64,000 nt of DNA, taken from positions 676-64,675 of the forward strand of contig DATJVA010000001.1 in NCBI GenBank assembly GCA_035502015.1, written 5' to 3'. The position numbers were made by a program, and so were the translations under genes. Position 1 is the stretch's first letter. Every line of letters starts with the position of its first letter. Below, in pieces: positions 37,625 to 56,499 of the stretch. The stretch is from Thermoplasmata archaeon. GTDB taxonomy: Archaea > Thermoplasmatota > Thermoplasmata > Lutacidiplasmatales > UBA184. The notes under the pieces were generated by a model. It was not told the origin of the DNA, ran no database searches, and saw only the letters and a list, made by a program, of their open reading frames with translations.

Positions 37625-38620
37625 ATGCCCGGATTCCCTCGCCTTCAGGAGCGCTACGACATCATCGTCGTCGGCGGGGGCCACGCCGGCCTCCAAGCGG
37701 CGGTGAAGGCCGCCCTCCTCCAGCATACGACCGCCCTTCTCGACCGGGGCCCGAAGTACTCGCGTTCGTACTATGCCCCGCATATGATGAACGTCCCGGG
37801 GTTCCCGGACGGTGTCTCGGGCCACCACCTGCTCGACCAGCAGATCGCCGCGGTCCGGAAGTTCGAGGACAAGGTCGGCTACTTCACTCCGGCCGCGGTG
37901 ACCTCGGTCGAGAGGGGGCCGGACGACTTCGTCGTGACGTTCGAATGGCTGAAGCGGACGCACGTGACGCGGGGCCGGGCCGTGGTTCTCGCGATGGGCG
38001 TCGTCGACCGGATCCCGGTCGTCGGCGGCAAGATCGACACGATATTCCCCTGGGCGAACCAGGCGATCGTCGACTTCTGCCTCGTCTGCGATGGTTGGGA
38101 CCTCGTCGATCGGTCGGTCGCGGTGCTGGGCCATGACGCGTTCGCGGCGCGTACCGCGCTCGACATCCTCTCGTTCCGGCCGAAGTCGGTCGAACTGCTG
38201 ACCCACGGCCGCCCGCTGCTCGACGGAGTGCCCGAGCCCGACCGGTCCACCCTCGCGGCCGCTCTCATCGAGCACGGGATCCCGCACCTCACCTCCGAGA
38301 TGGTCGGCTTCGACGGCATCCGGGAAAAGCAGTTCGTCGTCCGGTTCGCGGACGGGACGCACCGGACCTACGACCGAGGGTTCAGCGGCCTTGGCTGGTA
38401 CGACATGCACCAGACGATCCCGCGCTCGCTCGGTTGCCGGTTCGACGCGGACGGGTATGTCGTCACGGACGACGACTGCCGCGCCCTGTCGGAAGCGACC
38501 GGTGAGCCGATCCCCGGCCTCTACTGCGTCGGGGACCAACGCAACGGTTGGAACCAGATCCCCGAGGCGTGGGCGACCGCCGAACGGGCGGTCGTTCACG
38601 CGTGGGCGTCGTACCTCTAG
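37625..38620 (+). CDS. trxB: Thioredoxin-reductase-like FAD/NAD(P)-dependent disulfide oxidoreductase
   Basis: YDIIVVGGGHAGLQAA (FAD GxGxxG) and FCLVCDGWD (CxxC redox site, cf. TrxR CATCDG). Confidence 0.7.
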   Translation: MPGFPRLQERYDIIVVGGGHAGLQAAVKAALLQHTTALLDRGPKYSRSYYAPHMMNVPGFPDGVSGHHLLDQQIAAVRKFEDKVGYFTPAAVTSVERGPDDFVVTFEWLKRTHVTRGRAVVLAMGVVDRIPVVGGKIDTIFPWANQAIVDFCLVCDGWDLVDRSVAVLGHDAFAARTALDILSFRPKSVELLTHGRPLLDGVPEPDRSTLAAALIEHGIPHLTSEMVGFDGIREKQFVVRFADGTHRTYDRGFSGLGWYDMHQTIPRSLGCRFDADGYVVTDDDCRALSEATGEPIPGLYCVGDQRNGWNQIPEAWATAERAVVHAWASYL

Positions 38621-48638: not shown

Positions 48639-49517
48639 CTACAACCGGACTCGGGTCGTCGGGGCCTCGGGGAGGTCGCGAGCGGTGCCTCCCCGAGCCT
48701 TCTCCATCGCGTCGGTGAGGCGAAGGTTCACCTCGGCCATCACCGGCTCGCGGTCCTCGGGTTTACGGACCATGACCGTGAGCACGAGGTCGGTCGATTG
48801 CGGCGAGCGTGCCTTCACGGTGAAGACCGGAGGATAGCGCCGGTCGAGTCGAATGCGCAACCGGGAGAGCGCCTTCAACATGTCGCTCTCGAACACCGCG
48901 AGCTCGGCCGAGCCGGGGAGCGTGATCGGGATCACCACCTCCTTCCACGCCTGGGGAGTCAGGTTGATCACCGGCTCTCGCAGGAAGATCGAGTTCGGCA
49001 GTCCGACGAGACGGTCGTCGTCGGTGAGAATGACCGTGCTCATCGCGTTCACCTCGATGACCCGCCCGGCCTGGTCCCCGACCCGGATCGTGTCGCCGAG
49101 CTTGAACGGGGCGTAGAGGTCGGCGAAGTACTTCGCCCCGAAGTTCTCGAGCGGCTGGCGCAGCGCCACGACCGCCGCCACGCCGAGAAGGGCGATCACG
49201 AGGAGAAGGATGTCGACGCTGACGCCGAGCTCCTGCACCGCGAGGACGATGCCGACGAGCCAGACGATGACGACCCCGAGCCGCTGGGCCGCGACGGTGA
49301 TCTGCGGATTGCTCTGGCGCATGAACCCCCAGATCAGGAGTTCCACGACGTACGAGAACAGCCAGGTGAGCCCGAGGATCACCCCGAAGTAGAGGAGCGG
49401 AAGGATGTACGACGGCACGTCGAACAATCGCCTATCCCTCCTGGACCCGACGGAACAGCCGCGCCTCGCTTCGTACCGCCGCCTCGATCGAGCAGCGACG
49501 GGCCGTTCGCCGGCCAT
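48639..49517 (-). CDS. mscS: Small-conductance mechanosensitive channel (MscS family)
   Basis: 3 TM helices then YAPFKLGDTIRVGDQAGRVIEVNAMSTVILTDDDRLVGLPNS (MscS beta-domain). The annotated start overlaps the GT4 gene; a TTG at 49427 would remove the overlap. Confidence 0.8.
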   Translation of the reverse strand: MAGERPVAARSRRRYEARRGCSVGSRRDRRLFDVPSYILPLLYFGVILGLTWLFSYVVELLIWGFMRQSNPQITVAAQRLGVVIVWLVGIVLAVQELGVSVDILLLVIALLGVAAVVALRQPLENFGAKYFADLYAPFKLGDTIRVGDQAGRVIEVNAMSTVILTDDDRLVGLPNSIFLREPVINLTPQAWKEVVIPITLPGSAELAVFESDMLKALSRLRIRLDRRYPPVFTVKARSPQSTDLVLTVMVRKPEDREPVMAEVNLRLTDAMEKARGGTARDLPEAPTTRVRL

Positions 49518-50964
49518 GGCGGCTCAGGCGCTCCCGCAGCGGCCCCGGGTCGTGCAGGAGTCGAGTCATCGCGTGCTCCAGTCCCACCGGATCGTCCGGA
49601 TCGAAGAGCAGTCCGTTCTGTCCGTCGTCGATGAGGTCAGCGATCCCCGCCCTCCGGCTGACGACCGCCGGCTTACCGAACAGCCAGCTCTCCACCACCA
49701 CGAGCCCAAACCCCTCCCGGACGGACGGAAGGACGGTGAACGCACATCGCTCGTACAGGCACTCAAGCTCCCGCTGAGTGACGTGACCGGTGAAGACGAC
49801 GCGGTCCGAGACGCCGTGCTCTTCGGCCACCTCCTCAAGGTGGCGACGCCAGGATTCGGACTTCGATAGCCGTAGACCCACCCGGCTGTTGGAGAAGCTG
49901 CCGTTCCCGGCGAGCACGAGACGGAGGTGTGGGAACGAGTGCACGAGCTTCGCGACCGCGGCGATCACCCGGTCCTGAGCTTTTGCCGGGTCCATGCGGG
50001 CGACGACCAGTACCACGTCGGCGTCGGCCGCGATCTGGAATCGTTCGCACGTCGCCTGGACATCCGTCGCGCTCGGCCGTCCGTACTCGCTCGGGTCCAC
50101 GTAGGGGTAGAGCAGGGCCACGGGTCCCCGGTGTCCGTACCGCTTCAGCGCCGAACGGTACCGGTCCGCGCTCACGACCACGACGTCGTAGGCGCTCAGA
50201 TACGAGGAGATCGGAGCCCGCCAGGAGGCGGGGATCGCGCGCACGTCGAACGGGATGTGCCACCGGAACAGCTTGGGCTTGACGGTGCCGAGCATCTGTC
50301 CGACCGGCAGCTGCTGGAAGTCGTGGATGTAGAACGCGTCGAAGTCGACACGACGGTCGAGCTCCCGGATGAGCTCCGCCGTGGTTCGGTTGTAGTAGGT
50401 GTACTCGGTGAAGTCGTCGGTCCAGAAGAGGTCCGTAGGCTGGGTCGGTGACGGCACGCCGTGCACTCTCGTCCAGATCGTCTCCTTGGCCTTCCCGTAG
50501 CCGTCCAGCCGTCCGGGGTCGACCGAGATGTTGTGAAGCGTGATCCCGTCGGTGAGGTGAACGGTCTCGGGAGCCTGCGGGTTGAGCGCGACCCAGTGGA
50601 CCTCCTCCCAGACGCCTTCCGCCAACAGACGCTTCGCGAGCGGATAGACCATCCGAGTGACGCCACCGGGAGAGAACCGGTAGTCGACCCCTTCTTCGAG
50701 CTTTGAGAAATCCGGCTCGAGTTCCCACATCGCGCGACCGTCCTTCGCGGCCGCGGCGAACTGGAGGAGGGGCGTCTGCGTGTTGATGCACACGCGCATC
50801 GCCTCGGGGCGCCCGTCACCCACGGAGTTCGCGAGGGGGAGGACGTCCCCCTCTCCGTCCGCGTGATCGACGAGCGTTGTCTTGTTCACGAGTCCCGTAT
50901 CACTGTCCGCTGGGGAGTCCGGGAGCGGAGCCTCCGGCGAGGGGCTCGTCTTGCTTTCTCGCAT
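49432..50964 (-). CDS. GT-B-fold glycosyltransferase, family GT4-like
   Basis: C-terminal ...LPSVREGFGLVVVESWLFGKPAVVSRRAGIADLI (E-x7-E region). GAGGAAG SD before the ATG at 50964. Alternative starts are GTG 51030 or ATG 50799. Confidence 0.7.
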   Translation of the reverse strand: MRESKTSPSPEAPLPDSPADSDTGLVNKTTLVDHADGEGDVLPLANSVGDGRPEAMRVCINTQTPLLQFAAAAKDGRAMWELEPDFSKLEEGVDYRFSPGGVTRMVYPLAKRLLAEGVWEEVHWVALNPQAPETVHLTDGITLHNISVDPGRLDGYGKAKETIWTRVHGVPSPTQPTDLFWTDDFTEYTYYNRTTAELIRELDRRVDFDAFYIHDFQQLPVGQMLGTVKPKLFRWHIPFDVRAIPASWRAPISSYLSAYDVVVVSADRYRSALKRYGHRGPVALLYPYVDPSEYGRPSATDVQATCERFQIAADADVVLVVARMDPAKAQDRVIAAVAKLVHSFPHLRLVLAGNGSFSNSRVGLRLSKSESWRRHLEEVAEEHGVSDRVVFTGHVTQRELECLYERCAFTVLPSVREGFGLVVVESWLFGKPAVVSRRAGIADLIDDGQNGLLFDPDDPVGLEHAMTRLLHDPGPLRERLSRHGRRTARRCSIEAAVRSEARLFRRVQEG

Positions 50965-50995: not shown

Positions 50996-51009
50996 CCCGG
51001 GGCCCCGGG
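50996..51009. repeat. Perfect 14-bp palindrome CCCGGGGCCCCGGG between the C2H2 and GT4 genes
   Basis: Read directly. Possible hairpin (intergenic terminator/attenuator) on the minus-strand transcript. Confidence 0.3.
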
Positions 51010-51034
51010 TCCTTGCGTTACCCCTTCCACACTA

Positions 51035-51295
51035 TTAGTAGAGCGGCTGACGCCGGGGAGTTGGTCGAGGACGGGGCGTGGTCGACGGGTGGGGGCTCAG
51101 GTTGTGTCGCGTGAGGGCGTCCATGGTGGAGAACCGACGTCCGCACAGCGCGCAGACGAGGCCCGCCCGGTGAGACTCGGGGTTCATCGCAAGGCTGTCA
51201 CGAGCGTTCCCGCCCGAATGCGCCTTTCGAAGGTGAAGGATCACTTCCGCGGGCGAGCCGAACCAGGCGCCGCAGTCGGCGCACATCTCTGCCAT
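51035..51295 (-). CDS. Tandem classical C2H2 zinc-finger protein (2 fingers) with Pro/Arg-rich tail
   Basis: Start at MAEMCADCG (GGGAGAGG SD 8 nt upstream). Finger 1 is C-x2-C-x12-H-x4-H (CADCGAWFGSPAEVILHLRKAH). Finger 2 is C-x2-C-x12-H-x5-H (CALCGRRFSTMDALTRHNLSPH). Confidence 0.6.
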   Translation of the reverse strand: MAEMCADCGAWFGSPAEVILHLRKAHSGGNARDSLAMNPESHRAGLVCALCGRRFSTMDALTRHNLSPHPSTTPRPRPTPRRQPLY

Positions 51296-51590
51296 GTTCT
51301 CGCCTCTCCCATCGTAGGTGCGTCTCCACCTCCCGGCCCCCTTCTTGTAGATTTGTCCCACCGGAACCGGACCCCCGGCAATCGCCGGACCCGGGGGCCT
51401 AGGAATACCCCGATTGTCGAACTCTTCGGCGAGCGGATCTCGCCGGAATCACGGAAGAGATCGCAGCGTTGGACAAGGGTTGAAATAACATCGTCCCGGC
51501 TGGCCGCTTTGCCCTCGCCGAACTTCCCGCGCGCAACGAAGCGGGAGGAGCACGACGGGGAGTGAATTCTCAAGGAGGTGAAAAAGCAAA

Positions 51591-51986
51591 GTGACAGAAT
51601 TGACCGAACAGAGGCTCGGCTACGGATTCGGGCTACTCGGAGGCGCCCTCATCGCCCTCGGTGGGCTGGTGAGCCTGATCGTCGGCACGGCGGACCTCAT
51701 CCTGGGCCGGCCGAACGGGGCCATCAGCGCTGCGAGCAGCGCCGTGGTCCTCTTCGTGGTCGGCGGTCTCGCGATCTTCTTCGCGTGGCTCGCTCGACAC
51801 GACTGGAGCGCTCGTCCGCTCGCGAGCGGCGTGCTGCTGGTCGTGCTCGCCGTGGTCGGATGGGCGATCGTCGGGATCGACGCGAGCCTCCTAGCGCTGG
51901 TCGGCTCGCTGTTCGCCTTCTTGGCTGGAGTGCTGTTCCTGATACAGCCCGTGAAGAAGGCGGCCGAGCTCGCGGTCGCGGCGTAG
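51591..51986 (+). CDS. Small polytopic membrane protein (about 4 TM), GTG start
   Basis: AAGGAGGTG SD 13 nt upstream of the GTG. Gly/Ala/Leu-rich TM helices. Confidence 0.55.
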   Translation: MTELTEQRLGYGFGLLGGALIALGGLVSLIVGTADLILGRPNGAISAASSAVVLFVVGGLAIFFAWLARHDWSARPLASGVLLVVLAVVGWAIVGIDASLLALVGSLFAFLAGVLFLIQPVKKAAELAVAA

Positions 51987-54645: not shown

Positions 54646-56499
54646 TGCGTCCGAAGAAGACCGCTCCTCGGTCATGGGGCTGTCGGTCGGGGCGTGCTCA
54701 CGGTGTCGAACGCTCACCGCGAGCCCGCGGCCGAGCTCGGTCATGAGCGCGCCCGGCAGCTCCGCTTCTCCGACTCCCGCGAGCCGTCCGTCCCGGAGCA
54801 GAACCACCGCATCCCCGACCCGGATCCGTTCGTCCGCCCGCCGGACTCCCGGAGCGAACAGGTCCCCCTCGAGAGTGACCCCCGGGTCGACCTCGACCGC
54901 GAGAGGAGGGTCGGGCATCCAGCGTCGAGCGCCAGCCACTGTCAGCTGGAACAGTCCGCGCTCCTCGCGCCACGTCGCGAGGTCGTTGTGGCCGTCGGTC
55001 AGCCGTTGGAACCAGGGCCGGCCGCTGAGCCGGATCGGAGGGATGAACAATCGACGGGCACCCTCCCGGCCGAACTGGACCGCGGCCACGGCCTCGAGCT
55101 CCTCCCTCACGACCGAGAGCGGGCCTCCCGACACGGAGGTCTCGTCCGCGAGCGCGCGCTCGGTCTCGTGCCGCAGCGCGGCGACCGCCTCGTTCGTGGT
55201 CGTTCGACCGTCCTTCAGCGTCCAACGAACCGTGTCGGACGGCGGAAGCTCCTCCTCGAGGAACGAGTACTCCGACGGGTCGAGGTGCACGATCACGGAG
55301 CGGTACTGCCCCAGGCCGAGGAGGTGGGCGAGCGCGGTGCGAACGTACGCCCGCTCGCTCTCCTCCCACTCACCGGTGACGGGAATGTCGTAGTGCCGCG
55401 CGGGCGGCATGTCCTCGAGCTCGCGGGGCACAAGACCGATCGGCGAGCTGACCGAGACGACGTGGACCCGCTCGACAGCCCGGAGACCCTCGAGCGCGCC
55501 CCAGAACCGTCGGTGGCTGCGCGACCTGCGGTACGGTTTCGTCTTCGAGCACGGCACGAGCAGGAGCACCGTCTTGGAAGGTGGCGGGCGGTACCGTTCG
55601 ACGAGACGCGAGCGGAACCGCGCCATCTCCGGACGTCGGTGGGACTCGAGAAGGACGTAGTCACGAGAGCCCGAGGACGCGACCGGTGCCCGCTCATCGA
55701 GGAGGTCCCGAAGCTCCCGGTCCGCGTAACGGAGCATCTCGGCGAGCGCCGGCTCTGCGACGAGGTGGGCCTCTACGAGCTCGCGCAGTCGTCCTGCCCG
55801 CGCGGCGGCCCGCGTCTGAGCAAGGGCTTGACGCGAGGCAGCGACCGCATGCTCCGAAAGCGAACCGCCCGTCTCCGACCGGCAGGCAGGACAATCGCAG
55901 GAGCGATCTTCGTGAGCCGGTGCCGGGCGCCGTGCCCCGAGCAACGGGTCGAGGAAGGCTCCATCGGCCGCCGCGAGATGGGCCTCGGTCGTGTCGAGGA
56001 GGTCGACGCCGAGATAGACGAGCAGCGGGATCCGATGCGGCAGAGCGAGCCGGGGTGTCCAGAGGAGCGGGGACGCGCCGAGGAGCCGGCGGACTTCGCC
56101 CACGGCACGAACGAACGGGAGGCCGTCCGCCCACAGAGCCCGCGCGTTCCCGAGAACGACCAGCTCCGGGTGCTCCGCCCGCGCCGCCACGGCGGCCTCG
56201 GCGGTGATCGGCGAGTGGACCAACAGCGCCCGGGGTCCGACCGAATAGATGCCGGGGCCCTCCGCGCGGACCTCCGGGGAGAGGATAGGGGTCTCAAGCG
56301 CGAAGTGGGCCGTGCCGTCCGAGATCTCGAACCGACGTGTTCCCGCCGGGGCCGGCACCACGTTGCGTAGGGAGAATCCCGGCCCGTCCTCGCCAGCGAG
56401 GCGGCTCTCGAGAAGCCCGGGCGTGGTCAGGGCGAGCGGTCCGAGGGTCGCTCCCCCAAGGAGCCCAAGCCCCTCGAGGCGTTCCACCGTACGGGGCAT
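54631..56499 (-). CDS. arcS: Archaeosine synthase ArcS-like (TgtA2 paralog: TGT-like Zn site, PC-x3-KPY motif, C-terminal PUA)
   Basis: Start at MPRTVERLEG. SCDCPACR zinc motif. LVPCSKTKPYRRSRSH matches the ArcS signature. C-terminal ...IRVGDAVVLLRDGRLAGVGEA is a PUA domain. The last 5 codons (GPVV*) are the tRNA-Val 5' end. Confidence 0.7.
   Translation of the reverse strand: MPRTVERLEGLGLLGGATLGPLALTTPGLLESRLAGEDGPGFSLRNVVPAPAGTRRFEISDGTAHFALETPILSPEVRAEGPGIYSVGPRALLVHSPITAEAAVAARAEHPELVVLGNARALWADGLPFVRAVGEVRRLLGASPLLWTPRLALPHRIPLLVYLGVDLLDTTEAHLAAADGAFLDPLLGARRPAPAHEDRSCDCPACRSETGGSLSEHAVAASRQALAQTRAAARAGRLRELVEAHLVAEPALAEMLRYADRELRDLLDERAPVASSGSRDYVLLESHRRPEMARFRSRLVERYRPPPSKTVLLLVPCSKTKPYRRSRSHRRFWGALEGLRAVERVHVVSVSSPIGLVPRELEDMPPARHYDIPVTGEWEESERAYVRTALAHLLGLGQYRSVIVHLDPSEYSFLEEELPPSDTVRWTLKDGRTTTNEAVAALRHETERALADETSVSGGPLSVVREELEAVAAVQFGREGARRLFIPPIRLSGRPWFQRLTDGHNDLATWREERGLFQLTVAGARRWMPDPPLAVEVDPGVTLEGDLFAPGVRRADERIRVGDAVVLLRDGRLAGVGEAELPGALMTELGRGLAVSVRHREHAPTDSPMTEERSSSDAGPVV

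What the first reader, a model, noticed from the sequence alone, without database searches (positions are those of the whole stretch)
50996..51590. Tandem classical C2H2 zinc-finger protein in an archaeon, flanked by palindromic hairpins
The 86-aa ORF has two textbook TFIIIA-type fingers (C-x2-C-x12-H-x4/5-H), which are uncommon in archaea. It starts from a good SD. It is followed by a perfect 14-bp palindrome CCCGGGGCCCCGGG. A 295-nt non-coding leader region with two further hairpins (CCCCCGG...CCGGGGG and GGCGAG-CGGAT-CTCGCC) lies upstream of it. The adjacent small membrane protein has a near-ideal AAGGAGGTG SD and a GTG start.
Basis: seen in the sequence. Interest (0 to 1): 0.55.

Follow-up and report, generated by a model that had tools for sequence, protein, structure and literature searches.

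The report
Archaeal two-finger C2H2 stress-locus protein
A small protein with two classical, eukaryote-type zinc fingers is really encoded and conserved in a group of soil archaea; it sits beside sugar-protectant and pressure-valve genes behind an unusually conserved three-box control region, so it is probably a stress-response regulator of a kind rarely seen outside eukaryotes.

Summary
An 86-aa ORF on the minus strand (51295..51035) carries two C-x2-C-x12-H-x4-H fingers. It passes Pfam zf-C2H2 thresholds, is predicted to form two beta-beta-alpha fingers, and belongs to a family of about 46 distinct sequences. All named members come from Thermoplasmata MAGs (UBA184/Lutacidiplasmatales-type soil and peat archaea). 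The zinc ligands are invariant and the ORF is under purifying selection.

The "hairpins" are not RNA elements. The 14-bp palindrome and the GGCGAG hairpin are not conserved even in the closest relative, and such palindromes are common here. The CCCCCGG...CCGGGGG hairpin, however, contains a conserved DNA palindrome (box M2).

M2 is the middle of a three-box promoter architecture (M1-M2-M3). The boxes lie about three helical turns apart, and spacing variants differ by roughly 10, 20 or 22 bp. The architecture precedes the ZnF gene in most relatives. Related copies precede the adjacent 4-TM gene and a 71-aa helical-protein gene.

The ZnF gene is repeatedly linked to a TreT-like glycosyltransferase, MscS, a GH15 trehalase and the 4-TM protein.

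Best reading: a small zinc-finger regulator in an osmotic/desiccation-type regulon. Whether it reads the boxes itself is unproven, because the canonical base-contact residues vary. It is a new member of a known kind, of moderate interest.

The parts
51035..51295 (-). ZnF gene: 86-aa basic (pI 9.7) protein with two classical C2H2 fingers (res 5-26, 48-69), a 21-residue linker carrying the invariant N38-P39-E40, and an Arg/Pro-rich tail
   Evidence: ORF and translation. Pfam zf-C2H2 31.0 bits (cut-off 25.2) and zf-C2H2_4 31.6 (27). 21 homologues with invariant ligands, 46 distinct sequences in all. AF2 predicts two beta-beta-alpha units. All top Foldseek hits are C2H2-DNA complexes. Pairwise dN/dS 0.06-0.7.
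51303..51310 (-). Shine-Dalgarno-like GGGAGAGG, 8 nt upstream of the ZnF ATG
   Evidence: Read from the sequence. The GGAGG consensus occupies the same place in the alignment of 21 loci.
51340..51361 (-). Box M3: GTGGGACAAATCTACAAGAAGG. A conserved GGGACAA core is followed by an A/T-richer TAC(A/T)(A/T)GA stretch, about 60 nt before the ATG. Probable core-promoter (BRE/TATA-position) element.
   Evidence: PWM 28.7 bits. It is the only match to GGACAAANCTAC in the window and is conserved in 21 loci.
51375..51388 (.). Box M2: palindrome CCGGCAATCGCCGG (family consensus CCGGCGATCGCCGG).
   Evidence: It lies 31-32 nt from M1 and about 30 nt from M3 in nearly all loci. Variation is not compensatory and no RNA pairs are predicted.
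51403..51422 (-). Box M1: GTTCGACAATCGGGGTATTC, the most conserved box
   Evidence: PWM 33.3 bits. Identical in L033. Invariant core in 21 loci. The composite M1-N23-M2 recovers ZnF, TM131 and orf71 promoters from metagenomes.
51468..51489 (+). M3-like box of the divergent gene: GTTGGACAAGGGTTGAAATAAC (GGACAA core plus TTGAAATA TATA-like stretch), about 120 nt before the TM131 start
   Evidence: PWM hit. The same box sits at the same distance upstream of TM131 homologues in all gene arrangements.
51572..51580 (+). Shine-Dalgarno AAGGAGGTG of TM131, 10 nt before the GTG
   Evidence: Read from the sequence. The surrounding GAATTCTCAAGGAGGTGA is conserved in relatives.
51591..51986 (+). TM131: 131-aa four-helix membrane protein of unknown function, divergent from ZnF
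   Evidence: 218+ homologues, all about 131 aa, Thermoplasmata where named, with no Pfam family. AF2 gives 4 long helices, pLDDT 83. No significant PDB fold match. Within 3 kb of ZnF in 19 of 44 distinct loci.
49432..50964 (-). GT4 glycosyltransferase (510 aa), TreT/sucrose-phosphate-synthase-like, 70 nt downstream of ZnF on the same strand. Probable compatible-solute (trehalose-type) synthase.
   Evidence: Pfam Glycos_transf_1 119 bits; TreT_GT1 25.8 bits, just under its cut-off of 27. PDB matches: SPS 6kih 1e-18, TreT 2x6q 5e-13. NCBIfam shows partial TreT/OtsA matches only. Next to ZnF in 22 of 44 loci.
48639..49427 (-). MscS-type mechanosensitive channel (262 aa from TTG 49427; the longer ATG 49517 ORF overlaps GT4)
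   Evidence: Pfam MS_channel_2nd. Start choice. The GT4-MscS pair is conserved in 17 of 44 loci.
50996..51009 (.). 14-bp perfect palindrome CCCGGGGCCCCGGG between ZnF and GT4. Present, but no evidence of function.
   Evidence: 26 palindromes of 14 bp or longer in the window against about 14 expected. Not conserved in L033, L001 or L015. No T-run follows it. Spacer folding z = +0.23.
51428..51444 (.). GGCGAG-CGGAT-CTCGCC inverted repeat upstream of M1. Present, not conserved.
   Evidence: The arms do not pair in L033 (GGAGAA...GGACGCC), and the repeat is absent from other loci.

Best explanation
The ORF encodes a genuine small (86 aa, basic) protein with two classical Cys2His2 zinc fingers. The fingers are joined by a conserved 21-residue linker and followed by an Arg/Pro-rich tail. 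The family is specific to a soil/peat clade of Thermoplasmata.

In the window it is the first gene of a probable ZnF / TreT-like glycosyltransferase / MscS transcription unit. It is divergent from a conserved 4-TM protein gene.

Its promoter is a conserved three-box module. M1 is TTCGACAATCGGGG, M2 is CCGGCGATCGCCGG, and M3 is GGGACAAAcCTAC(A/T)(A/T)GA. The boxes lie about three helical turns apart on one face of the DNA, with M3 at the BRE/TATA position. Variants of the module precede the 4-TM gene and a 71-aa helical-protein gene, so these genes form a small regulon.

The gene content (solute synthase, GH15 trehalase, mechanosensitive channel) points to osmotic or desiccation stress.

Most likely mechanism: the ZnF protein is a zinc-dependent nucleic-acid-binding regulator of this regulon. 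It is made from the regulated promoter and feeds back on it, and so on the co-transcribed synthase/channel genes. It would bind near the shared G(A/G)C(A/G)A(T/A) cores, helped by its basic tail.

Shown: the protein family, the fingers, purifying selection, synteny, the boxes, their phasing and their reuse.

Inferred: zinc binding, DNA binding, autoregulation, co-transcription and the stress signal.
For: Fingers:
- Pfam scores are above threshold.
- Ligands are invariant in 21 and then 46 sequences.
- A profile of the family hits C2H2-DNA complexes in PDB.
- AF2 predicts two beta-beta-alpha units, and every top Foldseek hit is a DNA-bound C2H2 protein.

Coding: dN/dS is below 1 in all informative pairs, for example L011/L014 at 0.06. 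The MAE-x-C N-terminus and GGAGG are conserved, while the upstream boxes fall in all three frames.

Taxon: all 24 GTDB loci are Thermoplasmata MAGs, including UBA184, which belongs to Lutacidiplasmatales (PMC9287336).

Synteny survives rearrangement. Four arrangements all keep ZnF beside GT4/MscS/GH15/TM131. 30 of 44 distinct loci have at least one of these partner genes (or the inositol-monophosphatase-like or orf71 genes) within 3 kb.

Boxes:
- 14 invariant and 18 near-invariant columns in 21 promoters whose proteins are only 45-65% identical.
- Spacing is 31-32 and about 30 nt. The exceptions differ by about +10, +13, -10, +20 and +22 nt.
- Copies lie upstream of TM131, orf71 and single-finger ZnF variants.

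Protein features consistent with DNA binding: pI 9.7 with a basic tail, a conserved Arg before the finger-2 Phe, and Lys/Arg after the finger-1 His.

The GH15 neighbour is TreH1-like, and the GT4 is TreT/SPS-like.
Against: - The canonical base-reading helix positions (-1, +2, +3, +6) are small/acidic (S, A, E/D in finger 1) or highly variable (entropy up to 3.2 bits). Yet the boxes are nearly invariant across the same loci. This is not what a canonical sequence-reading finger pair predicts.
- The fingers lack the TGEKP-type linker that positions tandem fingers on DNA.
- Single-finger variants keep the boxes.
- No box occurs upstream of GT4 or GH15 themselves, or elsewhere in the window.
- 14 of 44 loci show none of the partner genes within 3 kb, 6 of them with long flanks.
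- The GT4 product is not established: all NCBIfam equivalog scores are far below cut-off.
- There are no expression, zinc or binding data.
Confidence: 0.42

Rival explanations
1. Regulon member, not the regulator. The three boxes are read by another factor: an unlinked transcription factor, or an alternative TFB recognising the GGGACAA element at the BRE position. The ZnF protein would then be a stress-induced small zinc protein acting through protein or RNA contacts, for example with the co-regulated 4-TM protein, the glycosyltransferase or the channel.
For: - Base-contact positions are variable or small/acidic while the boxes are invariant.
- The invariant non-ligand residues lie off the recognition helix: E3, N38-P39-E40 in the linker, G45, A49, G52, P68. 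This suggests a conserved macromolecular partner.
- The pairing with TM131 persists through rearrangements.
- Boxes persist in front of single-finger variants.
- C2H2 fingers can mediate protein and RNA contacts (PMC3541406 introduction).
- Small zinc-finger proteins of Haloferax affect stress adaptation without a shown DNA role (PMC6562870 abstract).
Against: - No candidate alternative regulator is consistently linked. Neighbours differ between loci; a MarR appears only in L036.
- The protein is strongly basic, with a phosphate-contact-type Arg in finger 2.
- All structural neighbours are DNA-bound fingers.
- The ZnF gene is the commonest gene behind the boxes, as expected for an autoregulated factor.
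Confidence: 0.35
2. The flanking inverted repeats and the 295-nt region are RNA-level elements: a terminator or attenuator after ZnF, a structured 5' leader, or an sRNA.
For: - The inverted repeats exist.
- Some relatives also have a GC-rich inverted repeat between ZnF and the next gene, for example L003 GGGCGGAGTCC...GGACTCCGCCC enclosing the SD.
Against: - RNAalifold finds 0 consensus pairs in 21 promoters.
- Folding z-scores are -0.57 for the 295 nt and +0.23 for the ZnF-GT4 spacer.
- No Rfam match even at E<=1.
- The palindrome and hairpin 2 are not conserved in the closest relative.
- No oligo-T follows the palindrome.
- Palindromes of 14 bp or longer are frequent here.
- Box spacing changes by about one or two helical turns (+10, +13, -10, +20, +22 nt). 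This is a signature of sites on duplex DNA rather than RNA.
Confidence: 0.05
3. Recent horizontal acquisition of a eukaryotic zinc-finger gene fragment, or of a viral one, rather than a resident archaeal family.
For: - The fingers score best against eukaryotic poly-ZnF proteins in profile searches.
- C2H2 fingers in archaea were first noted mostly in viruses (PMC3541406).
Against: - The family spans 24 species-level Thermoplasmata genomes at 45-65% identity, with conserved synteny and a conserved archaeal-type promoter.
- A paralogous family is even broader in the same class.
- Composition is host-like: GC3 0.77 against 0.81-0.89 for the neighbours.
- There is no eukaryotic TGEKP linker.
- No match in the phage/virus record collection, only a weak PHROG hit at E=0.002, and no defence-system hits.
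Confidence: 0.04
4. Chance Cys/His pattern in a non-coding or mis-called ORF of a high-GC genome.
For: High-GC genomes have many spurious long ORFs. Several overlap this region.
Against: - Ligands are invariant in 46 distinct sequences.
- Length is conserved at 83-88 aa, with a conserved MAE-x-C start and SD.
- dN/dS is below 1.
- Pfam scores are above threshold.
- The pattern is unique in the six-frame translation of the window.
Confidence: 0.01

Closest known systems
Classical eukaryotic C2H2 (TFIIIA/Kruppel/Zif268-type) zinc-finger DNA-binding proteins; among few-finger examples ADR1, GAGA factor and SALL4 ZFC4
   Same: Identical ligand spacing and hydrophobic core (C-x2-C-x3-F-x5-L-x2-H-x4-H). 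Predicted beta-beta-alpha fold. Pfam PF00096/PF13894 membership. The best structural neighbours are DNA-bound two- and three-finger modules. Like GAGA/ADR1 (own knowledge; PMC3541406 introduction), it has few fingers plus basic flanking segments.
   Different: The host is archaeal. The protein is only 86 aa with no other domain. The fingers are separated by a conserved 21-residue MNPE-containing linker instead of TGEKP. The recognition-helix positions are small, acidic or variable.
AFV1p06 family: single C2H2-like finger proteins of crenarchaeal viruses, and the 'sister' group of about 20 euryarchaeal ZNF proteins (PMC3541406)
   Same: Small archaeal-world proteins with a classical finger. AFV1p06 binds zinc and GC-rich DNA. 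The function of the cellular euryarchaeal relatives is unknown.
   Different: AFV1p06 has one finger, with Glu replacing the fourth ligand, plus a structured extension. The present family has two complete fingers, is chromosomal with conserved cellular synteny, and has no match in virus collections.
Ros/MucR prokaryotic zinc-finger regulators (alpha-proteobacteria)
   Same: A prokaryotic Cys2His2 zinc-binding transcription regulator, the only well-studied bacterial analogue (own knowledge; alluded to in PMC3541406).
   Different: Ros has a single site with C-x2-C-x9-H-x3/4-H spacing inside a larger globular domain. There is no Pfam ROS_MUCR hit here at E<=1.
Haloarchaeal C(P)XCG zinc-finger micro-proteins (e.g. 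HVO_2753, HVO_0758; Brz of Halobacterium)
   Same: Very small archaeal zinc proteins, some needed for stress adaptation (PMC6562870, PMC11241148, PMC10716476 abstracts). Both fingers here also begin C-x-x-C-G.
   Different: Those are Cys4-type zinc ribbons or knuckles, not Cys2His2 beta-beta-alpha fingers. There is no significant Pfam HVO_0758 hit for the window protein.
TrmB-family control of trehalose/maltose (TM) genes including treT in Thermococcales (PMC4158304)
   Same: An archaeal regulator encoded inside a trehalose-related cluster, acting at a palindrome at the BRE/TATA of the first gene, with autoregulation reported for some family members.
   Different: TrmB is a winged-helix sugar sensor that binds TACTN3AGTA. 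Here there is no TrmB gene at the locus, the boxes are unrelated in sequence, and the candidate regulator is a C2H2 protein with no ligand-binding domain.

Membership tests
Classical C2H2 zinc finger (Pfam PF00096 / PF13894) | Ligand spacing C-x2-4-C-x12-H-x3-5-H, present in each repeat | tested here: met
   C5/C8/H21/H26 and C48/C51/H64/H69. Invariant in 46 distinct homologues; one relative (P0002) has C48G with F55C.
Classical C2H2 zinc finger (Pfam PF00096 / PF13894) | Profile score above the curated gathering threshold | tested here: met
   zf-C2H2 31.0 bits against 25.2; zf-C2H2_4 31.6 against 27.
Classical C2H2 zinc finger (Pfam PF00096 / PF13894) | Conserved hydrophobic core (Phe after the second Cys, Leu in the helix) and beta-beta-alpha fold | tested here: met
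   F12/L18 and F55/L61 are conserved in 42-46 of 46 sequences. AF2 gives b3-4/b11-12/H15-25 and b46-47/b54-55/H58-65, with finger pLDDT 76-85. The Foldseek top 50 are all C2H2 fingers, prob up to 1.0 but E only about 6e-3. This is a prediction, not a solved structure.
Classical C2H2 zinc finger (Pfam PF00096 / PF13894) | Binds one Zn(II) per finger | not testable with these tools
   Needs metal analysis of purified protein.
Kruppel-type tandem DNA-reading finger arrays | Short conserved TGEKP-like 7-residue linker between consecutive fingers | tested here: not met
   21 residues lie between H26 and C48, with a conserved SLAMNPE(S/A) motif.
Kruppel-type tandem DNA-reading finger arrays | Polar or basic base-contacting residues at helix positions -1, +2, +3, +6, conserved when the target is conserved | tested here: not met
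   Finger 1 has S / A / E-D / variable. Finger 2 has T-S-D-N / variable / A / R in 21 of 46. The candidate target boxes are near-invariant.
Ros/MucR | PF05443 domain with a C-x2-C-x9-H-x3-4-H site | tested here: not met
   No ROS_MUCR hit at E<=1. The spacing here is x12.
AFV1p06-type archaeal viral ZNF | Single finger with a C-terminal loop-helix-strand extension; encoded by viruses or proviruses | tested here: not met
   Two fingers, no extension predicted. No tblastn hit in 50,697 phage/virus records. Chromosomal synteny across species.
Hairpin-type (bacterial-style intrinsic) terminator, for the 14-bp palindrome | GC-rich stem followed by a T-run, conserved at the 3' end of the gene | tested here: not met
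   No T-run follows it. Not conserved in L033, L001 or L015. z = +0.23.
Structured cis-regulatory RNA / sRNA (for the 295-nt region) | Conserved secondary structure with covariation, or a match to a curated family | tested here: not met
   0 consensus pairs. z = -0.57. No Rfam hit at E<=1.
Archaeal regulated promoter with upstream operator/activator sites | Conserved DNA boxes at fixed, helically phased distances from a BRE/TATA-position element and the start codon, reused at co-regulated genes | tested here: met
   M1-M2 spacing 31-32 nt and M2-M3 about 30 nt, with exceptions at about +10, +13, -10, +20 and +22 nt. M3 lies 51-63 nt before the ATG. The boxes are reused at TM131 and orf71. The TSS and the bound factor were not testable.
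TreT-type trehalose synthase (for the downstream GT4) | Equivalog-level match to TreT, including its N-terminal domain | tested here: inconclusive
   TreT_GT1 25.8 bits against a cut-off of 27. NF041139 55 bits against 775. PDB TreT 5e-13, but SPS and MshA score better. Linkage to a TreH1-like GH15 supports a trehalose-type product.
Anti-phage defence system | Match of any locus protein to PADLOC models | tested here: not met
   No hits for ZnF, GT4, MscS or TM131. The Pfam 'GT4-conflict' hit covers only the generic GT4 C-domain.

The most novel reading that the evidence does not exclude
A eukaryote-type two-finger C2H2 protein is the dedicated, autoregulated transcription factor of an osmotic/desiccation regulon in Lutacidiplasmatales-type soil archaea. 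The regulon comprises a compatible-solute synthase, a trehalase, an MscS channel, a 4-TM protein and a small helical protein. The factor reads three helically phased boxes around a weak BRE/TATA through a non-canonical mode involving the MNPE linker and the basic tail. This would be the first cellular archaeal C2H2 transcription factor with a defined operator and target set.
Probability: 0.25. Interest if true: 0.75.

Novelty: new member of a known kind. Interest (0 to 1): 0.5.

Why it matters
Classical C2H2 fingers are the dominant DNA-binding domain of eukaryotes. They are nearly absent from prokaryotes: PF00096 occurs in 59 proteins and 3% of genomes in PMC7017128. The only experimentally studied archaeal-world example is a viral single finger (PMC3541406).

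This locus offers a cellular archaeal family with features that make its function directly testable:
- two intact fingers;
- a sharply defined candidate operator (three short boxes within about 85 bp);
- a small set of co-regulated genes;
- a plausible physiological role in osmotic or desiccation protection in uncultured acid-soil Thermoplasmata.

The tests are feasible: EMSA or footprinting with synthetic DNA and an 86-aa protein. [quoted passage not shown]

If the protein proves not to read the boxes, the phased three-box promoter still defines an unknown archaeal stress regulon and its unknown regulator.

Tried and rejected
1. RNA readings of the hairpins and leader. Tested with RNAalifold, single-sequence folds with shuffles and Rfam at gathering and at E<=1. 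All negative.

2. The 14-bp palindrome as a conserved element. Rejected by palindrome statistics and by alignment to the closest relative L033 and to L001/L015.

3. The longer 108-aa GTG-start ORF (51361). Rejected because the extension is simply box M3 read in frame. In other loci M3 falls in all three frames relative to the ATG, and the MAE-x-C start is universal.

4. Exhaustive profile search for distant small relatives. The list was swamped by eukaryotic poly-ZnF proteins, so it gave no information on distant archaeal relatives.

5. Extra regulon members in the window. Single-box searches gave only chance-level or coding hits, for example GACAATCG at 55890 inside a long ORF.

6. Metagenome scan for M1-N(21-25)-M2. 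Matches with 21-, 22-, 24- or 25-nt gaps were almost all unrelated (bacterial-looking) coding sequence; one 22-nt match (L054) precedes a TM131 gene. The true elements otherwise had exactly 23 nt.

7. Viral or defence origin. No phage-collection hit, only a weak PHROG hit, and no PADLOC hit.

9. orf71 as an LEA/phasin-like protein. Only sub-threshold Pfam hits, so no claim is made.

10. ZnF2 paralogue promoters. They do not carry the boxes.
Full report
**What is in the sequence.**
The finding spans 50996-51590. The ORF lies on the minus strand, with its ATG at 51295 and its TAA stop at 51037-51035. It encodes 86 aa: MAEMCADCGAWFGSPAEVILHLRKAHSGGNARDSLAMNPESHRAGLVCALCGRRFSTMDALTRHNLSPHPSTTPRPRPTPRRQPLY.
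- Both fingers read C-x2-C-x12-H-x4-H (C5/C8/H21/H26 and C48/C51/H64/H69).
- GGGAGAGG lies 8 nt before the ATG.
- The 14-bp palindrome (50996-51009), the 295-nt intergenic region (51296-51590), the two inverted repeats (51372-51397 and 51428-51444), and the AAGGAGGTG-N10-GTG start of a 131-aa membrane protein (51591-51986) are all as described.

The C2H2 pattern occurs nowhere else in the six-frame translation of the window.

**Is it a real C2H2 protein?**
Yes.
- Pfam zf-C2H2 (31.0 bits, cut-off 25.2) and zf-C2H2_4 (31.6, cut-off 27) are above threshold, and there is no Ros/MucR hit.
- A word-indexed search of 5.8 billion proteins found 21 homologues of 69-109 aa, most of them 83-88 aa. JGI labels members 'uncharacterized C2H2 Zn-finger protein' and NCBI labels them 'C2H2-type zinc finger protein [Thermoplasmata archaeon]'.
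- In the alignment C5, C8, H21, H26, C51, H64 and H69 are invariant, and C48 is present in 20 of 21. E3, N38-P39-E40, G45, A49, G52, L61 and P68 are also invariant.
- Adding the genomic and metagenomic loci gave 46 distinct sequences with invariant ligands.
- Pairwise Nei-Gojobori estimates give dN/dS between 0.06 and 0.7, with synonymous sites near saturation.
- An AlphaFold2 model from the family alignment has two beta-beta-alpha units, a poorly defined linker and a poorly defined tail. All top Foldseek hits in PDB are DNA-bound C2H2 modules such as SALL4, CTCF, BCL11A and Zif268. A family profile also hits such chains by sequence.
- The longer 108-aa GTG ORF is an artefact. Its extension is a conserved promoter box that falls in all three frames in other loci.

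**Whose genome, and how widespread.**
- The window has 69% G+C.
- The adjacent membrane protein is 100% identical to a protein of a 'MAG TPA: Thermoplasmata archaeon'.
- All 24 loci found among 185,579 GTDB species genomes are Thermoplasmata MAGs from soils and peat. One is UBA184, which belongs to the order Lutacidiplasmatales, formerly TMEG (PMC9287336). That paper notes GH15 trehalose hydrolases but mentions no zinc finger.
- A paralogous 75-aa two-finger family is still more common in the same class, with 138+ clusters.
- No relative was found in phage/virus records, and there are no defence-system hits.
- Together with the host-like composition, this gives no support for recent transfer from eukaryotes or viruses. 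The deep origin cannot be resolved with a 25-residue domain.

**Surroundings.**
- Downstream on the same strand, after 70 nt, lies a 510-aa GT4 glycosyltransferase. Its best solved relatives are sucrose-phosphate synthase, MshA and the trehalose synthase TreT.
- Next comes an MscS-type channel, most likely starting at TTG 49427.
- Divergently transcribed is the 131-aa protein 'TM131'. It is a four-helix membrane protein with 218+ homologues, no Pfam family and no fold match.

In relatives the same genes recur in different arrangements:
- TM131 divergent from ZnF-GT4-MscS.
- TM131, then a 71-aa helical protein, then ZnF, then GH15 (TreH1-like trehalase), then GT4.
- GH15, then ZnF, then an inositol-monophosphatase-like gene.
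- GH15-MscS-GT4 divergent from TM131-ZnF.

Of 44 distinct ZnF loci, 30 have at least one of these genes within 3 kb: GT4 in 22, TM131 in 19, MscS in 17, GH15 in 8 and orf71 in 6. Fourteen have none, and eight of those have short flanks. Linkage that survives rearrangement indicates a functional connection. The gene content points to compatible-solute or osmotic stress, but this is an inference.

**The hairpins and the 295-nt region.**
As RNA elements they fail every test.
- There is no consensus structure in 21 aligned promoters.
- Folding energies are indistinguishable from shuffles: z = -0.57 for the 295 nt and +0.23 for the ZnF-GT4 spacer.
- There is no Rfam match.
- The 14-bp palindrome is one of 26 palindromes of that length or longer in the window, against about 14 expected. 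No T-run follows it, and it is absent from the closest relative L033 and from other loci.
- The GGCGAG...CTCGCC repeat is likewise not conserved.

**What the region does contain.**
Printing the upstream regions of all loci and aligning 21 of them revealed three conserved boxes. This holds even though the encoded proteins are only 45-65% identical and the neighbouring genes differ.
- M1: GTTCGACAATCGGGG(T/A)A(T/C)T, window 51403-51422.
- M2: the palindrome TCCGGCGATCGCCGG, window core 51375-51388.
- M3: GGGACAAA(C/G)CTAC(A/T)(A/T)GA, window 51340-51361. It lies 51-63 nt before the ATG.

Equivalent positions of M1 and M2 are 32 nt apart, and those of M2 and M3 about 30 nt, in almost every locus. 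The exceptions differ by about +10, +13, -10 and +22 nt, which is roughly whole helical turns. This is the expected signature of protein sites that must face one side of duplex DNA. Variation within M2 is not compensatory, and the variants make it resemble M1 (CGRCRATCG).

A PWM scan of about 300 kb of loci found M3-like boxes only upstream of ZnF and TM131. The window example is 51468-51489 on the plus strand, GTTGGACAAGGGTTGAAATAAC. In loci where TM131 and ZnF are co-directional, TM131 has its own M1'-M2'-M3' set with M2'-M3' lengthened by 20 nt.

A scan of metagenome contigs for M1-N(21-25)-M2 returned true elements with a 23-nt gap, apart from one 22-nt TM131 promoter (L054). They lay upstream of ZnF (13), TM131 (5), an orf71-type gene (L058) and a single-finger ZnF variant (L075). 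The remaining matches with other gap lengths were unrelated coding sequence.

For comparison, a ribosomal protein S24e gene in related loci has a canonical CCGTTATATACGG promoter. The A/T-poor M3 therefore looks like a weak, factor-dependent core promoter. That is an inference.

**Mechanism.**
- Shown: a conserved two-finger C2H2 protein; a conserved, phased, reused three-box promoter; and conserved linkage to GT4, MscS, GH15 and TM131.
- Inferred, most likely (0.42): the protein is a zinc-dependent nucleic-acid-binding regulator of this small regulon, feeding back on its own promoter and thereby on the co-transcribed synthase and channel genes. Supporting features are its basic charge (pI 9.7, Arg/Pro tail), the phosphate-contact-type Arg before the finger-2 Phe, and its position as the commonest gene behind the boxes.
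- Main caveat: the canonical base-reading positions of both helices are small, acidic or highly variable while the boxes are constant. There is no TGEKP linker, and single-finger variants retain the boxes.
- The chief rival (0.35) follows from this caveat. Another factor, or an alternative TFB reading GGGACAA at the BRE position, controls the boxes. ZnF is then a co-regulated small zinc protein acting on a protein or RNA partner such as TM131. The invariant off-helix residues (E3, NPE, G45, P68) fit either non-canonical DNA reading or a protein interface.

**Comparison with known systems.**
- The protein is a member of the classical C2H2 finger family. Spacing, profile score, hydrophobic core and predicted fold are all met. 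Zinc binding could not be tested.
- It is not a Kruppel-type tandem array, because the linker and recognition-residue criteria are not met.
- It is not Ros/MucR, not an AFV1p06-type viral protein, and not a C(P)XCG Cys4 micro-protein.
- Functionally the nearest analogue for a regulator embedded in an archaeal trehalose cluster is TrmB of Thermococcales (PMC4158304). That protein has a different fold and a different operator.

**Verdict.**
The finding is real and better than a curiosity, but the protein class is known and database annotation already names these proteins. The new elements are three. First, the family's architecture, with a long conserved linker. Second, its lineage-specific linkage to solute, channel and 4-TM genes. 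Third, the phased three-box promoter, which no paper found in the searches made here describes. I rate novelty as a new member of a known kind and interest at 0.5.

Noticed in passing
L006:10955-11182 (also L156/L157:3501-3728, L158:3501-3758); not in the window: A second, paralogous family of 72-85-aa two-finger C2H2 proteins (35-38% identical to the window protein). It has 138+ clusters, all Thermoplasmata where named. It lies immediately upstream of a glyoxalase/VOC gene and/or a thermosome (Cpn60_TCP1) gene, and its promoters lack the M1-M3 boxes.
   Followed up: partly
L003:5550-5765; L058 (motif-oriented) 966-1181; L006:7396-7701(-): A 71-aa Ala/Lys-rich all-helical protein ('orf71') recurs beside the ZnF gene (6 of 44 loci). 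In L058 it has its own M1-M2-M3 promoter, and in L006 it is fused to an N-terminal zinc ribbon. It has no Pfam family; a phasin-like hit is sub-threshold.
   Followed up: partly
L029:620-1275 (same in L023, L026-L028, L030): A canonical strong archaeal promoter, CCACCGTTATATACGG, lies downstream of ZnF. It drives ribosomal protein S24e, which here carries a long K/E/P/A-rich C-terminal tail. It serves as a lineage reference for a constitutive BRE/TATA.
   Followed up: partly
L033:1150-1479 (protein P0002): In the closest non-identical relative, finger 2 has Cys48 replaced by Gly and Phe55 replaced by Cys (VGAMCGRHC). This is either a shifted ligand set or incipient decay.
   Followed up: no
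L032:2732-3010; L075 (motif-oriented) 2022-2246: Single-finger variants of the family that have lost finger 1 but keep finger 2, the PHYRSN-type tail and the promoter boxes (M2-M3, or M1-M3).
   Followed up: partly
Alignment A2, about 12 nt downstream of box M3; absent from the window: About half of the promoters carry a conserved CGATG at a fixed distance after M3. Downstream reading frames are variable or very short. It may be an initiator element or a tiny leaderless uORF.
   Followed up: no
window 38106-38195 (+): ARAGORN calls a 90-nt tRNA-Ala(CGC) that Rfam does not report at gathering threshold. It may be an intron-containing archaeal tRNA.
   Followed up: no
window 48639-49517 (-): The longest MscS ORF (ATG 49517) overlaps the GT4 gene by 86 nt. 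A TTG at 49427, preceded by GGAGG, gives the 262-aa length seen in relatives, 4 nt after the GT4 stop.
   Followed up: yes
L003:6253-6310: Between ZnF and the GH15 trehalase gene, an 11-bp inverted repeat (GGGCGGAGTCC...GGACTCCGCCC) encloses the Shine-Dalgarno sequence of the downstream gene. It is lineage-specific and may provide translational coupling or occlusion.
   Followed up: no
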